A program made the position numbers. From Trypanosoma brucei (lineage: Eukaryota), in assembly GCA_000002445.1 (NCBI GenBank), contig CM000208.1:640001-704000 (forward strand): a stretch of 64,000 nt of DNA, given 5' to 3'. This document shows positions 20,101 to 26,100 of the stretch, one piece after another (the stretch's first letter is position 1; each line of letters opens with the position of its first letter).

Positions 20101-23100
20101 TTACTTGCACGGGCGGTGGCGGATGCCACTCGCGGCCCGGACTGTACCAATGGCTTCTTGCTGAACGATTTTCCCAAAACGGCTGAGCAAGCGCGACACC
20201 TTAAAGCGGAGGGTATAGAACCAGATGCCATCGTCGTGCTTAGTGTTCCTGATAGTTTGTTGGTTGACCGTCATGCGGGGCGATGGGTGCATCCCAGTTC
20301 GGGTCGCGTGTACCACACCTTTTACAATCCCCCTAATGTTAAGGGGCGTGACGATGTTACTGGGCAACCGCTGGTGCAGCGACCAGAAGACACGGAGGAG
20401 GCTGTACACCAGGGGCTTGTGAAGTATTACGAGAGTATTAGAGGACTTCGCGCCGTATACGGTGACCCTAGACTTTGGCACACCGTTGACGGTTTTGCTT
20501 CCCTAGATAGTGTACACGTCTCTATATGTCGTGTGTTGGATCCTATTATTGCAGACAAGACACGTCGATGGTGGTCCAAGTTGTTTTGGTGGTCAAGTTG
20601 AACCTTCCTTATCTACCATTGCTTTAAGGGCACTGTGCGCTGCATTGCTGTATCGCTGCTATAAGGGTTGCTCAGCTTTTAATCTTTGCTGGTTCACCAC
20701 AGCTCTTTCTGTGCGCACGTGTGTGCATCATACTTGAGTTTCCTTTGGTTTTCGCATCTCTTGTCCCGTGTTGCATTTTTACATCGATTATTCTTACTTT
20801 ACCTGTTGGGTGTATGGTTAAGCACGCTGTGCTATAGGTAAGAAAGCCGAAGCGAATACTGAGGGAGGTTAGGGGATGGTAATTTTCTTTGGTCGAGCAC
20901 AAACCAGGCGAGTGACTGGAAAAGTAGTTGTGTTCGGTGCAACAACCAATGTAGGCAAGCACCTTTCACTACTACTAACTCTTTCTCCGCAGGTCAAGGA
21001 ACTGTGCTGTTTTGACCCGCTAAATGACGTCACACTTCGTATGACGGAGACACGTGTCCGCGGGATTGTGAAGGACCTCTCACATATCGATACTGGTGTT
21101 GTTTTGAGAGCTGTTGATGACCCGCAGCAGTGGGAACCAGCCATGAGGAACGCACAGTTGGTGCTTATCTGCACTGGCAGCATTCCCAACCCGAGTCGTC
21201 TGCAACGTGACCTTGCACTCGCGGAGTGTGCACCAGAGTATCTCGTTGCGATGGAATTAGTGGCCAGGGCAGCTCCCCACGCCATCGTTGGTATCGCTTC
21301 TGGTCCTGTTAACTCCTTAGTGCCGTTAGCGAGAGAGGTGCTTCTGCGACACAGTGCATTTGACCCACGCAAGCTTTTTGGCATAACTTCACGTGATGTT
21401 ATGCGAACGCGGGTTCTTTTTGCAAAGGAACTGCACATGAACCCTTACGATGTGAATGTGCATGTTGTAGGTGGAAAAGGTGATGCTACTGTTTGTCCAC
21501 TGATTACACAGACGGGATTCCAACTGCCACATCAGCGAATGGTACAGCTCTGCGAGGAGGTCCAACGTCCTGAGAATTTTACAGCAGGCGACCACAACTC
21601 CACGGGGTGTCGCGTTGACAGCCAAAACGTTCAAGGCCAAGAAAAGTTTACGTGCCCCACCTTGTCGACTGCAAACGCAGCATATGAATGGGTCACTTCG
21701 ATAATGAAGGCACAACGTGGAGACCGTGGCATTACCGAGTGCTCTTTTGTAGAATCTTCGATAAAGAGAGAGACGCCTTTTTTCAGCTCGCGCGTTGAAC
21801 TTGGTGAGGAGGGCGCTGCGCAGCTTTTACCATTGGGTGCTTTGACACCGTATGAGGAGGAACTTGTGGCAGCTGCTGTGCCGCTGATTGTGGAAGATGT
21901 TGAAGCTGGTTTGCGTTTATCCAAGACAGGGGTAGATGCAGTTTCATGAGACCCAGCGCTGTGAGTCTTTTCTCTCTTGTTGTGATTAATATCGAAATGT
22001 TGTTTAGTAGCGCTCGTTGGTTAACTTGTACACTTTTTTCTAATAGGGGAGCAAAAGTTATTGCAACTCTTATTTGTTCTTGGCGATCTAGTTCTATCCG
22101 TTTCTGTGCTCGCCTCCGTGTGTATAGGTTTGCGTGTGTTTGATAGCCGCTTGTTTTTTCTTGTCGCTTGCTTATACTTCCTTACACTTTACTTTACTGC
22201 TAATGCTAATGCTCTTGACACTACTAAAGTGATAACAAAACAACAAGGTCAAGCATTAGTGACATTAATTTAATATTGAAGCGAACAGAGGTGTACACGT
22301 ACACTTCCCTATCACTTGGCATTTTCTCTCAAGAGAGGAAATTGCAGCGATCATAATAAGGTTCAAAGAAGAAAATATTTACAACCGATATGCGTACCAG
22401 TGCAACTCTCCAGTTTAAAGTTGCCGTCCTCGGTGCTGCCGGTGGTATTGGTCAACCGTTATCGCTTATCCTGAAAACCAATCCTCTTGTGTCTCACTTG
22501 AGTTGTTATGACATACATGGTGTGACAGGCGTGGCTGCAGACCTCTCGCACATTTGTTCTCCAGCTAAGGTGACTGGTCACCTGAAAGATGAACTTCACA
22601 AAGCAGTTGACGGAGCTGACGTTGTCATCATCCCCGCGGGCACACCGCGAAAGCCGGGGATGACTCGCGAAGATCTCTTCAGTGTTAATGCAACGATCGT
22701 TCGAGACCTCGTATCGGCTTGTGCAAAACAATGCCCCAAGGCTCTTATCGGTGTTGTTTCCAACCCTGTCAACAGTGTTGTACCTATTGCTTCGGAGGTG
22801 CTCAAAAAGGCTGGTGTCTTTGACCCTGCTCGCCTCTTTGGCATAACCACGCTTGATGTGGTGAGAGCTCGAACATTTGTGGCTGAGGCCGCTGGTAAGA
22901 GTCCGTATGACGTTAATGTTCAGGTGGTGGGTGGACACAGTGGTCCGACTATTATTCCATTATTATCTCAAGCTGGTGTATCATTGACGGAGGAACAAGT
23001 CAAGGCTATAACGCGACGAGTGCAGTATGGCGGTGACGAAGTTGTGAAAGCTAAAGGAGGGGCGGGTTCAGCAACTCTTTCAATGGCGTACGCCGCTGGG

Positions 23101-26100
23101 GAATGGATGTCCTCCGTGTTGAAAGGGCTTCGTGGTGACAAGGGTATCGTGGAGTGTACGTATGTTCAGACGGATATTATTCCCGGCGTGAACTTTTTCG
23201 GTTGCCCGGTGGAACTTGGGAAAGGTGGCGTTGAAAAGATTCACAAACCTGTGTTTGACGCGTATGAACAGAGTCTTTTGGAGAAATGTGTTGCGGACTT
23301 GGAGAAAAATATCGCAGCAGGTTTTGCCTTCGGTTCCAGACAGTGAACAAAAGGAATTAAAAATCGTTATTTTGTAGAAATGAGCAATAGCATTCTTTCA
23401 TATTGTCCTCAAAAACGCACTTTTTTTTTTGCTGAAATGGCGTTCAAACACACAGAATTGGCTACAAATCTCCAAGGATGGTATGGTATTAATTATCTCT
23501 GCTGAAACTGCCGGTGAATTGAACCAACTGACACTGTGACGCTTGGTCCACGTGTGGTCTAGCATGTGTTTCTAAGAGTGTATGTGGATGTAGAATGAAT
23601 AATTGAGGGGTTTGTTAACTTACAGTGTTTTATTTCCTCCCTCACTGCATAGCAGGGTGCACGAAAGCCTAGGAGAGCAGGGTGCCTGACATTTATATGT
23701 CCTTATGCATGTCTGGCAGTGATGCTTATGGGTGCACCACGGGGCATTTCTTATTTTTATCGATATCGTTTTTTTTCTTTTTTTCTTTTTTTCTTTTCTT
23801 CTTTTCATTTAGCGTTTGAGGGTGATGGTGTACTTCCCCGCGATTTCGGTTACAGGTCTTCTTACCTTTCTCTCCTTCTTTTTGCTACTGCTGTAGTTGT
23901 GCTGTCTCCAAACGTTTAAATGTTTTTCTTCGTTTATCACTCCTATATCTGTATATACGTCTGTGTGAGTATGTACGTGTGCGCAATTATTGATTGACTA
24001 TTTTAGTAAAGGCATATATGCTCACACTTGGGATGCATACGCTTCAGCTCCTATCCCTGATTCTTTATTTTGCTGCTACTGTTTTCGTGCCGGCGCTGAA
24101 GGTTCCATCAAAAGCCGTTGTGCACCTCGTGGCACATACACACAGTGATTTGGGATGGCTCAAAACCGTTGACCAGTATACTTACGGGTTGAATAACAGT
24201 ATTCAGTTTGCCGATGTGACCACCATTATCAACAGCGTTGTGGAGGGACTACTGGCAAATCCAGAAAGGAAGTTCACTTACGTTGAAATCGGTTTTTTCT
24301 CGAGGTGGTGGTCAAGACAATCAGTGAGCATGCGGGAAAAGGTCCGTGGGTTGGTCGCCAATGGTCAACTGCAATTTGCCAACGGTGGTTGGTGTATGCA
24401 TGACGAAGCCACTACACACTATATTGATATGATCGACCAAACGACGCTTGGCCACCGATGGTTACTGCGGGAACTTAATGTGGTACCGCTTGTTGGATGG
24501 CAAGCCGATGCATTTGGGCATAGTGCCACACAAGCATCGCTGTTGACGTCGCGTGCTGGTTTCAATGGAACCTTTTTCGCCCGCATTGACTACCGTGAGT
24601 ATGAGGATCGTGTGAAGCGAGGGGGACGGCAGTTCTGGTGGGACGCTAGTCCGTCGCTACCTGACCTGAAAACATTTGCTGAGGCGAACCTGCACGCGAC
24701 CTATTGCTCAGCAGCGGGGTACAAATGGGATCTTGCTGATCAGTTAGAGAGTGCACGGACATTCACTCAAGCGGATGATATTATTGACGATAATGCGTCC
24801 GAGCGGTACAATGTTCCAGTTGTTCTTAAGCATTTCAAGGATGAGGTAGCTAGGAGTTTGCAGGCCACGCGTGGTGCGAACGTCATGTGGACGATGGGAT
24901 GTGACTTCACTTATATGGTGAGCGAGTTTTGGTTCGGCAAGATGGACAAATTAATCAAAATTGCCAATGATGATGGTGAGTTTACTGTGCGTTATTCCAC
25001 GCCGTACGAATATATGATGGCGAAGCTGGATGAGGCTGTGAATGCGAAAATCAAATATGAGACGAGCACGGGCGATTTCTTCCCGTATGCAAGTGCCGCT
25101 CACGAGTTTTGGACGGGATTTTACTCATCTCGACCGACTTTGAAGCGACTAATACGGATGTTAAGCAGTTATTGGGTTGCGTCCCGGCAGTTGCAATTCC
25201 TTGCAGGTGTGCCATCCGGTGATCTGCCACTTCTGAGCGATGCGCTCGCCATTGCACAACATCATGACGCGGTAACGGGAACGGCGCGGCAACACGTAAC
25301 ATTTGATTACGTCAAACGACTTGTGGCTGGATATAATGATGATTTCTCAGTTCGGCTTCGTACCGCACTTACTGGAAGATTGTTTAACCTCAGTAACGTA
25401 AGTCACTGTTTGCTGTCTAATGTGTCTGCATGCGACGCCACCGCCACTGGACTAGCAAAAAAAGGATCAAAACTGACGGTGATGGTATGGAATCCGAGTG
25501 TCCACCCAAATGTGAATACCTTTCTTCAAATACCCGTTCCACGAAGGGATATCAGAGTAGAGGGTAACGGCGTGAAGTCCTTTTCTGTCTATGGTTCACC
25601 CACTCAGGTAAGTGATTATTCCAATGTCAATGCGAATTGGCAACCATATACAATTGGGATAATTCTTTCGTTGGGGAAAACCTCCTCTCTTACTCTGAGC
25701 ACACCGGGGAAGTATGATATTCCACGGAAAGAATCACATGTCGGATATTCGCTGAAGAGTGTGGTATCCCGTGATAGGCGTGGAGGTTTTACGCTGACGA
25801 GTGACCATCTCAAGGTGCGTTTCGGGGTGAACGGGCGGCTAAAAAGCATTGAGGTATTGTCTGTTGGACAAGAGGTGTTGGTGGAGCATGATTGGTGTTA
25901 TTTCAAGAGCAGTAGAGGGGAAGACCCGAGTGGTATATCTGGTGGGGCGTACATAATGCGTCCTGTCTCTGATAATGTTTGTGAACCGATTAGCACCGAT
26001 AAAGTCGAGAGTATTATCATTGATGAGACGATTGGTATTGTGGAGCAAAGGTTCGGAAACGACCTCGTACAGCGAGTCATTCTTCACGGGGATACGGTGG

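What the first reader, a model, noticed from the sequence alone, without database searches (positions are those of the whole stretch)
20876..23346. Tandem MDH pair: canonical mitochondrial MDH preceded by a paralogue that has lost the catalytic histidine and the NAD-binding glycine motif
Both ORFs align over their full length, indicating an old tandem duplication. The upstream copy changes GAAGGIG to [17 protein letters not shown] to PNPSRLQRD and the proton-relay His of VVGGHSG to Lys (VVGGKGD), while keeping the fold-defining blocks DLSHI, GPVNS, FDPRKLFGIT and NPYDVNVHVVGG. That pattern is expected of a pseudo-dehydrogenase kept for a non-catalytic role (regulatory, scaffolding or heteromerisation with MDH), not of a decaying pseudogene, because the ORF is intact at 357 aa. 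Its function is apparently uncharacterised.
Basis: partly seen in the sequence, partly recalled or inferred. Interest (0 to 1): 0.65.

Follow-up and report, generated by a model that had tools for sequence, protein, structure and literature searches.

The report
Conserved dead malate dehydrogenase paralogue
Next to the normal mitochondrial malate dehydrogenase gene of Trypanosoma brucei sits an old duplicate that has lost its cofactor site and catalytic histidine; it is still made, imported into mitochondria and conserved in all trypanosomatids, so it is an uncharacterised non-catalytic "pseudoenzyme", not a dying gene.

Summary
The window is T. brucei TREU927 chromosome 10. ORF 20876-21949 is Tb927.10.2550 ("malate dehydrogenase-related", 357 aa). 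ORF 22390-23346 is Tb927.10.2560 (mMDH, 318 aa). They align end to end (35% identity, E 4e-49).

The upstream copy has the MDH fold (AF2 pTM 0.82; TM 0.78-0.89 to human and pig mMDH) but scores below the MDH equivalog cut-off. Across 24 orthologues:
- none keeps the central Gly of GxxGxxG;
- one keeps the ribose-binding Asp;
- none keeps Arg102;
- the catalytic His is Arg in 21, Lys in T. brucei, Gly in T. vivax, and kept only in one deep, unidentified lineage.

The ADK / dead MDH / mMDH gene order is conserved from Trypanosoma to Leishmania. dN/dS is 0.12-0.23. Forty-three positions are conserved only in the dead clade.

Published proteomics detect the protein in the ATOM40-dependent mitochondrial importome. 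No held paper discusses it, and a 2024 review counts only three MDH isoforms.

It is therefore a selected, expressed pseudoenzyme. Its mechanism is inferred, not shown: non-catalytic binding or regulation through the retained MDH scaffold, with mMDH or a respiratory-chain-associated assembly as the likeliest partners. It is a new member of a known kind and of moderate interest.

The parts
20876..21949 (+). Tb927.10.2550, 'malate dehydrogenase-related': 357-aa catalytically dead mMDH paralogue (stop codon included)
   Evidence: The ORF is listed. Pfam Ldh_1_N and Ldh_1_C match, but the protein is below the TIGR01772 cut-off. The calculated mass of 38,998 Da equals that of Q38BZ0/Tb927.10.2550 in the Peikert 2017 supplement. 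AF2 predicts an MDH fold.
20876..20920 (+). Short basic N-terminal extension MVIFFGRAQTRRVTG, a likely mitochondrial presequence
   Evidence: The N-terminus M(V/G)xFFxRR is conserved in orthologues. Peikert Supplementary Data 2 flags the protein as TargetP-positive, and it is in the ATOM40 importome. pLDDT is below 50 for residues 1-9.
20936..20956 (+). Degenerate dinucleotide-binding motif GATTNVG (canonical GAAGGIG)
   Evidence: The central Gly is T, S or N in 24 of 24 orthologues. It is G in all 11 live MDHs compared.
21005..21019 (+). End of strand beta2, CCFDP (canonical SCYDI, whose Asp binds the adenosine ribose); clade-specific Cys46
   Evidence: The Asp is present only in T. brucei (1 of 24). 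The CC pair is conserved in the dead clade.
21164..21211 (+). LICTG plus remodelled active-site loop SIPNPSRLQRD (canonical [14 protein letters not shown]): Pro to Cys99, Arg102 lost, Arg109 equivalent (R111) kept, new conserved D105 and R108
   Evidence: The clade consensus is xCxGxxFDPxRxxRD.
21386..21412 (+). TSRDVMRTR: retained Asp174 and Arg177 (LDH numbering D168 and R171)
   Evidence: The Asp is present in 24 of 24 and the Arg in 22 of 24 orthologues.
21464..21484 (+). VVGGKGD: catalytic His195 position replaced by Lys201
   Evidence: This position is Arg in 21 of 24 orthologues, Lys in T. brucei, Gly in T. vivax and His only in P0033. The alignment to PDB MDHs confirms the position.
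21566..21655 (+). Variable, predicted-disordered insertion replacing the canonical [20 protein letters not shown] region
   Evidence: pLDDT is below 50 for residues 234-258. Length and sequence vary between orthologues, and the insertion exceeds 100 aa in P0033.
22390..23346 (+). Tb927.10.2560, canonical mitochondrial malate dehydrogenase (mMDH), 318 aa
   Evidence: TIGR01772 scores 408 bits against a cut-off of 273. All catalytic and NAD-binding motifs are intact. The calculated mass of 33,188 Da equals the mMDH entry in the Moloney 2023 supplement. PMC5737535 gives the identifier.
19912..20601 (+). Tb927.10.2540 adenylate kinase, the conserved upstream neighbour (synteny anchor, not a functional part)
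   Evidence: The ORF is listed. The identifier comes from bioRxiv 10.1101/2020.06.15.152785. An ADK gene precedes the dead MDH in all loci fetched.

Best explanation
Tb927.10.2550 is a catalytically dead paralogue (pseudoenzyme) of mitochondrial MDH. It arose by tandem duplication of mMDH at or before the origin of Trypanosomatidae. It is translated, imported into the mitochondrion and kept under purifying selection.

Inferred from sequence: it can no longer bind NAD(H), because the central Gly of GxxGxxG and the ribose-binding Asp are lost and Cys replaces Pro in IPAG. It cannot do proton relay, because His195 is Arg, Lys or Gly. It has lost the MDH-specific Arg102.

It keeps the MDH fold. 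It also keeps the helices that form the MDH dimer interface (alphaB GQPLSLLLK, alpha[10 protein letters not shown], and LSLAYAAxEWxxSxLKALRGD). An arginine-lined remnant of the dicarboxylate pocket remains (R108, R111, R177, R201, with D174 and N146).

My committed mechanism, which is inferred and not shown, is that it works by binding, as a non-catalytic dimerising subunit or regulator inside the mitochondrion. Rough split of that mechanism:
- heterodimer with mMDH (prozyme-like modulation), about 0.3;
- scaffold or adaptor attached to an inner-membrane or respiratory-chain-associated assembly, about 0.25;
- homodimeric dicarboxylate-binding protein or sensor, about 0.15.

Pseudoenzyme status itself I put at about 0.85.
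For: - Paralogy and fold.
- Dead state conserved in 24 orthologues.
- Forty-three positions conserved only in the dead clade, 50 shared with live MDH, and 30 live-conserved positions freed. This is the pattern of new constraints, not decay.
- dN/dS: 0.17 (T. brucei / T. equiperdum), 0.20 (T. theileri / T. melophagium), 0.12 (L. mexicana / L. sp. Ghana) and 0.23 (T. cruzi / T. rangeli). These values are similar to those of the neighbouring genes.
- Conserved ADK / dead MDH / mMDH order in seven trypanosomatid loci and in the deep lineage L008.
- The dead clade is monophyletic with 100% bootstrap, and its internal branching follows the species tree.
- Kinetoplastid mMDHs are the best-scoring live sequences against the dead-clade HMM, at 244-329 bits against 231 or less for other eukaryotes.
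- Protein evidence: ATOM40-RNAi ratio 0.27 (p 0.0006) with 11-14 peptides, flagged TargetP-positive, and listed in the Acestor 2011 'respiratome'. It is also detected in the bloodstream-form mitoproteome.
- Precedents for non-catalytic MDH roles are among the structural hits: plastid NAD-MDH in the Ycf2-FtsHi motor (8xku) and in BAM1-LSF1-MDH (8j5d).
- Trypanosomatid prozyme precedents: PMC5201418 and PMC3663545.
Against: - No enzymatic, binding or interaction measurement exists, so inactivity is inferred from sequence alone.
- D168, R171, N140 and R109 equivalents are retained, so a different chemistry or plain ligand binding is not excluded.
- hyperLOPIT does not place the protein with mMDH. 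mMDH is 'matrix 2'. Tb927.10.2550 is 'unknown', with best guesses of inner membrane (flagged as an outlier), matrix 2 at 0.70, or non-mitochondrial classes in other runs. This argues against a stable stoichiometric mMDH heterodimer.
- Recombinant trypanosome mMDH is active on its own (my recollection of Aranda et al. 2006, not checked here), so it does not need an activator.
- The protein is absent from every solved PDB complex and from the supplements of the T. brucei complex map.
- The pocket residues are degenerate in T. vivax and T. congolense, which weakens the sensor idea.
Confidence: 0.6

Rival explanations
1. Prozyme model in the strict sense: the dead copy forms an obligate heterodimer with mMDH and allosterically activates or tunes it, as AdoMetDC prozyme and the dead DHS paralogue do in T. 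brucei.
For: Both proteins are in the same organelle. The tandem pairing is ancient. The segments best conserved between the two paralogues are the helices known to form the MDH dimer interface (plus textbook MDH structure). T. brucei repeatedly uses dead paralogues as activators (PMC5201418 and PMC3663545).
Against: The spatial-proteomics profiles and t-SNE positions of the two proteins differ. The 'respiratome' flag applies to the dead copy and not to mMDH. mMDH has every catalytic residue intact and is reported active as a homodimer (my recollection, not checked here).
Confidence: 0.2
2. It is still an enzyme: a 2-hydroxyacid or other oxidoreductase with non-canonical cofactor binding, or a different chemistry that uses the retained Asp/Arg/Asn plus the new Arg and Cys residues. 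T. cruzi AHADH evolved from cMDH in a comparable way.
For: D174, R177, N146 and R111 are retained. New invariant residues (C46, C99, D105, R108, R201) line the former cofactor and substrate cleft. A specificity switch within the family has a precedent (PMC11461325).
Against: Three independent NAD-binding determinants are lost in essentially all orthologues, and the general acid/base is gone. The residue at the His position is not fixed: it is R, K, G or H. The [10 protein letters not shown] block is replaced by a variable disordered insertion. The score is far below the MDH and LDH equivalog cut-offs.
Confidence: 0.1
3. It is a decaying or recently inactivated pseudogene, or an annotation artefact with no function.
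For: Loss of catalytic motifs is what a pseudogene would show at first glance.
Against: The ORF is intact in every species examined. dN/dS is 0.12-0.23. Forty-three clade-specific positions are conserved. The protein is detected with up to 60% sequence coverage and is imported through ATOM40.
Confidence: 0.02

Closest known systems
Trypanosoma brucei mitochondrial malate dehydrogenase (Tb927.10.2560, the adjacent gene)
   Same: Same fold, same two Pfam domains, same organelle and same transcription unit. 35% identity over the full length. Shared DLSHI, PVNS, FDPxxLFGxT and NPYDVNVxVVGG blocks.
   Different: The dead copy lacks the central Gly of GxxGxxG, the beta2 Asp (in the clade generally), Arg102, His195 and [10 protein letters not shown]. 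It carries a disordered insertion and 43 clade-specific conserved residues. It is below the MDH equivalog cut-off.
Trypanosomatid 'prozymes' (AdoMetDC prozyme, dead DHS paralogue, PRMT1 PRO subunit)
   Same: A catalytically dead paralogue of a metabolic enzyme, restricted to and conserved across trypanosomatids, under purifying selection.
   Different: For prozymes, heteromer formation and activation are shown experimentally, and the active partner is nearly inactive alone (PMC5201418, PMC3663545). Here no interaction is shown, the partner looks fully competent, and the two proteins do not co-fractionate in hyperLOPIT.
Plant plastidial NAD-MDH as a structural component of the Ycf2-FtsHi motor (PDB 8xku) and of the BAM1-LSF1-MDH complex (PDB 8j5d)
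   Same: An mMDH-type fold used as a building block of a larger assembly. These are among the top structural matches.
   Different: The plant protein is a fully active enzyme that moonlights. The trypanosomatid protein has lost the catalytic apparatus and exists beside an active copy.
T. cruzi aromatic L-2-hydroxyacid dehydrogenase (AHADH), an MDH-derived paralogue without MDH activity
   Same: A trypanosomatid MDH-family duplicate that no longer acts as an MDH (PMC11461325).
   Different: AHADH derives from the cytosolic MDH lineage and remains an NAD-dependent dehydrogenase. Tb927.10.2550 derives from the mitochondrial lineage and lacks the NAD and His determinants.
Independent His-less mMDH-like paralogues in insects (Anastrepha, Lygus, Menopon, Photinus, Prorops), Closterium and Hanseniaspora
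   Same: mMDH-type sequences with the His/Asp dyad substituted.
   Different: They keep GxxGxxG and the ribose-binding Asp, are unrelated by descent to the trypanosomatid clade, and are also uncharacterised.

Membership tests
LDH/MDH superfamily (Pfam Ldh_1_N PF00056 + Ldh_1_C PF02866) | Both domains score above the Pfam gathering threshold | tested here: met
   46.3 bits (cut-off 27) and 46.0 bits (cut-off 22.6).
LDH/MDH superfamily (Pfam Ldh_1_N PF00056 + Ldh_1_C PF02866) | Two-domain MDH fold | tested here: met
   AF2 model has pLDDT 80 and pTM 0.82. Foldseek TM is 0.78 by query and 0.88 by target to human MDH2 (2dfd), E 3.5e-26.
NAD-dependent malate dehydrogenase, mitochondrial/gamma-proteobacterial type (EC 1.1.1.37; NCBIfam TIGR01772) | Score at or above the equivalog cut-off (273 bits) | tested here: not met
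   171 bits. The neighbouring mMDH scores 408 bits.
NAD-dependent malate dehydrogenase, mitochondrial/gamma-proteobacterial type (EC 1.1.1.37; NCBIfam TIGR01772) | GxxGxxG dinucleotide-binding motif and the acidic residue at the end of beta2 | tested here: not met
   The motif reads GATTNVG. The central Gly is absent in 24 of 24 orthologues and the Asp is present in 1 of 24.
NAD-dependent malate dehydrogenase, mitochondrial/gamma-proteobacterial type (EC 1.1.1.37; NCBIfam TIGR01772) | Catalytic His195-Asp168 dyad (LDH numbering) | tested here: not met
   The Asp is kept in 24 of 24. The His is replaced by Lys in T. brucei, Arg in 21 and Gly in 1, and is kept only in P0033.
NAD-dependent malate dehydrogenase, mitochondrial/gamma-proteobacterial type (EC 1.1.1.37; NCBIfam TIGR01772) | Substrate arginines R102, R109 and R171 | tested here: not met
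   R102 is absent in 24 of 24. The R109 equivalent (R111) and R171 (R177) are mostly kept.
NAD-dependent malate dehydrogenase, mitochondrial/gamma-proteobacterial type (EC 1.1.1.37; NCBIfam TIGR01772) | Oxaloacetate/malate oxidoreductase activity | not testable with these tools
   This needs an assay on recombinant protein.
Trypanosomatid prozyme-type pseudoenzyme | Catalytically dead paralogue of an active enzyme, conserved in trypanosomatids under purifying selection | tested here: met
   (dead state by sequence criteria only).
Trypanosomatid prozyme-type pseudoenzyme | Forms a heteromer with the active paralogue | not testable with these tools
The indirect evidence is unfavourable: hyperLOPIT profiles differ.
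Trypanosomatid prozyme-type pseudoenzyme | The heteromer strongly activates an otherwise feeble catalytic subunit | not tested
   mMDH has all catalytic residues. It is reported active alone (my recollection, not checked here).
Pseudogene | Disrupted ORF, or neutral evolution (dN/dS near 1), and no protein product | tested here: not met
   The ORF is intact in all species. dN/dS is 0.12-0.23. Peptides are detected.

The most novel reading that the evidence does not exclude
The dead MDH is a kinetoplastid-specific regulatory or adaptor subunit. It has traded NAD binding for a new cysteine- and arginine-lined ligand or protein-binding cleft. Through that cleft it couples the mitochondrial malate/oxaloacetate branch (mMDH, fumarase, fumarate reductase) to the respiratory chain. 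It could do so either as a prozyme-like partner that tunes mMDH or as a dicarboxylate-sensing scaffold on the inner membrane. That would add a central-carbon-metabolism example to the trypanosomatid prozyme paradigm and give a parasite-specific handle on mitochondrial redox balance.
Probability: 0.2. Interest if true: 0.7.

Novelty: new member of a known kind. Interest (0 to 1): 0.45.

Why it matters
Trypanosomatids are the textbook case of dead paralogues that control their active siblings (AdoMetDC, DHS, PRMT1). A fourth MDH-family protein has been carried in databases as "MDH-related" or simply "malate dehydrogenase" and is scored as K00026 in metabolic reconstructions. Reviews that count three isoforms ignore it.

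Recognising it as a conserved, expressed pseudoenzyme does three things:
- It corrects metabolic models that may count it as an MDH.
- It nominates a cheap, testable candidate regulator or scaffold of mitochondrial malate metabolism in three major pathogens.
- Together with the independent His-less mMDH paralogues seen in insects, algae and yeasts, it suggests that MDH pseudoenzymes are a recurrent and unstudied phenomenon.

It is not a new kind of biology.

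Tried and rejected
1. Subunit of an already solved T. brucei cryo-EM complex (mitoribosome, its assembly intermediates, ATP synthase, Euglena-type complex I). Rejected: no identical or near-identical chain exists in the PDB, and all 21 hits are bona fide MDHs.
2. Full-text searches for Tb927.10.2550, Tb10.70.5120, Tb10.70.2550 (an identifier I guessed wrongly), 'malate dehydrogenase-related', and pseudoenzyme or prozyme combined with MDH. 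No paper discusses the gene.
3. Finding which respiratory complex it co-purified with. Acestor 2011 (PMC3186196) is not held. The identifier is absent from the held supplements of TrypTag, Dolezelova 2020, Gazestani 2016 and the Vickermania paper. Supplement look-ups are exhausted.
4. Heterodimer prediction with linker-fused, species-paired sequences.
5. Placing the dead clade relative to kinetoplastid mMDH by an NJ tree. Unresolved: bootstrap 10, a long branch. HMM scores and synteny were used instead.
6. Identifying the organism behind the deep orthologue P0033. A search with P0033 returned only itself.
7. A second partial copy in the window. None was found.
8. The T. rangeli locus seemed to lack mMDH. 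That is an assembly-gap artefact.

Full report
**What is there.** The window holds two same-strand ORFs separated by 440 bp: 20876-21949 (357 aa) and 22390-23346 (318 aa). They align over essentially their whole length, with 35% identity and E 4e-49. Both match the two Pfam LDH/MDH domains. Only the downstream one passes the NCBIfam equivalog for mitochondrial/gamma-proteobacterial MDH: 408 bits against a cut-off of 273, while the upstream one scores 171. The calculated masses of the upstream, downstream and preceding adenylate-kinase proteins are 38,998, 33,188 and 25,656 Da. These equal the values printed for Tb927.10.2550 (Q38BZ0, "malate dehydrogenase-related"), Tb927.10.2560 (mMDH) and Tb927.10.2540 in published T. 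brucei TREU927 tables. The window is therefore T. brucei chromosome 10, and the finding is Tb927.10.2550 plus Tb927.10.2560.

**The dead state, and whether it is conserved.** I collected 24 orthologues of the upstream gene from Trypanosoma (brucei group, congolense, vivax, cruzi, rangeli, conorhini, grayi, theileri, melophagium), Leishmania, Porcisia, Leptomonas, Novymonas, Strigomonas and several unnamed assemblies. I aligned them with 11 live mMDH-type sequences.
- The central Gly of GxxGxxG is T, S or N in 24 of 24.
- The Asp at the end of beta2, which binds the adenosine ribose, is present only in T. brucei.
- The Pro of IPAG is Cys in 24 of 24.
- Arg102 is absent in 24 of 24.
- The mobile loop [10 protein letters not shown] is replaced by a new conserved pattern, xFDPxRxxRD.
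- [10 protein letters not shown] is replaced by VAPPVALxLA, preceded by a variable insertion.
- The catalytic His is Arg in 21, Lys in T. brucei, Gly in T. vivax, and His in one sequence (P0033).
- Retained residues are Asn140 (24 of 24), Asp168 (24 of 24), Arg171 (22 of 24) and the Arg109 equivalent (R111, conserved in at least 90% of the 23 crown dead-clade orthologues).

All 11 live sequences have every canonical residue. HMMER alignment to crystallised MDHs confirms that Lys201 sits opposite the catalytic His.

**Fold.** An AF2 model (pLDDT 80, pTM 0.82) gives the standard two-domain MDH fold. Only the N-terminal nine residues, a short loop (residues 53-56), the insertion (residues 234-258) and the last four residues (354-357) are disordered. 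The best structural matches are human and pig mMDH, with TM 0.78-0.79 by query and 0.88-0.89 by target.

**Selection and age.** The order adenylate kinase / dead MDH / mMDH is found in L. mexicana, L. sp. Ghana, T. theileri, T. melophagium, T. b. equiperdum, T. cruzi and T. rangeli. In T. rangeli an apparent 487-aa gene is mMDH split by an assembly gap. Nei-Gojobori dN/dS for the dead gene is 0.17, 0.20, 0.12 and 0.23 in four pairs with dS of 0.04-0.58. This is in the same range as mMDH and ADK in the same pairs. Within the dead clade, 43 positions are at least 90% conserved where live MDHs differ or vary. Fifty positions are shared with live MDHs, and 30 live-conserved positions have become free. 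That is the signature of new constraints, not decay.

The clade is monophyletic (100% NJ bootstrap) and branches like the species tree. Its position relative to kinetoplastid mMDH is unresolved by NJ. However, kinetoplastid mMDHs are the best-scoring live sequences against the dead-clade HMM. A profile search of 1.84 billion representatives found only three clusters belonging to the clade before scores fall from 350 to 231 bits. The third cluster, P0033, is from an unnamed sequencing run. It is again followed by a canonical MDH. It has already lost GxxGxxG, Arg102 and the [10 protein letters not shown] block, but it keeps His. Its linked mMDH is equidistant (62-66%) from Trypanosoma and Leishmania mMDHs. 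This suggests, without proving, that cofactor binding was lost before the His.

**Expression and location.** In Peikert et al. 2017 (PMC5436138) the protein is quantified with 11-14 peptides. It drops to 0.27 after ATOM40 RNAi (p 0.0006), which places it in the mitochondrial importome. Their reference table flags it as TargetP-positive and as part of the Acestor 2011 "respiratome"; mMDH is not flagged there. Zikova et al. 2017 list it as core metabolism (K00026) and as detected in bloodstream forms. In hyperLOPIT (Moloney 2023) it is left "unknown". Its best guesses are mitochondrial inner membrane (flagged as an outlier) or matrix 2 (0.70), and non-mitochondrial classes (microtubule structures 2, secretory/endocytic 2) in other runs. 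It lies away from mMDH on the map.

**What it most likely does.**
- Shown: it is a real, selected, expressed, mitochondrial MDH-fold protein.
- Inferred from well-established LDH/MDH structure-function knowledge: it cannot bind NAD(H) normally and cannot catalyse hydride transfer with proton relay.
- Inferred: it acts by binding. The segments best conserved between the dead and live copies are helix alphaB (GQPLSLLLK), helix alphaC (GVAADLSHI) and the LSxAYAxxEWxxSxLKxLRGD helix. In mMDH and E. coli MDH these form the dimer interface (textbook knowledge; I could not measure contacts because model coordinates are not exposed).
- The former substrate pocket keeps, and even gains, basic residues (R108, R111, R177, R201). 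New invariant cysteines (C46, C99) occupy NAD-contact positions.

I therefore commit to a non-catalytic dimerising subunit or regulator. The partner is uncertain. mMDH is the natural candidate given the prozyme precedent (PMC5201418, PMC3663545), but spatial proteomics does not support a stable complex. The respiratome flag points to an inner-membrane-associated assembly that I could not identify.

**Comparison with what is known.** It is a member of the LDH/MDH superfamily by domain and fold. It fails four defining features of an NAD-MDH, so it should not be filed as an MDH. It resembles the trypanosomatid prozymes in being a dead, conserved paralogue, but the defining heteromer and activation are untested. 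Plant plastid NAD-MDH shows that this fold can serve structurally in large complexes (8xku, 8j5d), although there the enzyme is still active.

No held paper mentions the gene in its text. A 2024 review of parasite MDHs counts three isoforms in T. brucei and Leishmania. The database name "-related" shows that annotators noticed divergence. The conserved dead state, the selection on it and the likely order of motif loss appear not to have been described.

**Verdict.** The finding is a new member of a known kind (a pseudoenzyme paralogue). It is of moderate interest and directly testable with simple biochemistry and tagging.

Noticed in passing
window 27903-28475 (+) and 21743-21946 (+); protein P0029: The T. 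b. equiperdum protein annotated 'Nucleolar protein 12' (252 aa) consists of 191 aa matching window 27903-28475, fused to the last 68 aa of the MDH-related protein. It is either a chimeric gene model or a mis-assembly in GCA_003543875.1, or a real rearrangement.
   Followed up: partly
L001 12199-13029 (L. mexicana); P0044 (Leishmania Viannia, 331 aa): Leishmania carries a third tandem MDH-like gene downstream of mMDH. In the Viannia representative P0044, Arg109 is His and Asp168 is Asn, while His195 and the NAD motif are intact. This is a second possibly impaired paralogue in the same array.
   Followed up: partly
proteins P0047, P0048, P0050, P0055, P0072, P0097, P0030/P0031: The dead-clade profile also retrieves independent mMDH-like paralogues with the His/Asp dyad substituted but GxxGxxG kept. 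They occur in insects (Anastrepha, Lygus, Menopon, Photinus, Prorops), the alga Closterium and the yeast Hanseniaspora. In total, 28 of 147 top hits lack His in the automatic alignment.
   Followed up: partly
L008 998-2383 and 3151-4104 (Logan DRR495436): A 461-aa deep orthologue of the dead MDH has two long low-complexity insertions and a retained His. It lies in tandem with a canonical MDH.
   Followed up: partly
L005 4515-5471 versus window 22390-23346: T. b. equiperdum mMDH differs from the window's mMDH by about 11 non-synonymous changes, with a group of them around GAGSATLS(M/T)AY(AAG/ITA)EW(M/T)SS. dN/dS is 0.36, higher than for the dead copy in the same pair. Gene conversion with another MDH copy or assembly collapse are possible causes.
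   Followed up: no
L007 3087-4550 (T. rangeli): The called 487-aa gene without Pfam hits is mMDH duplicated and split by a run of N in the assembly. It is not a novel gene.
   Followed up: yes
window 23994-27011 (+): A 1005-aa ORF downstream of mMDH is the GH38 alpha-mannosidase-like gene seen at the same position in T. theileri, T. melophagium and T. cruzi. In Leishmania this position is taken by further MDH copies.
   Followed up: no
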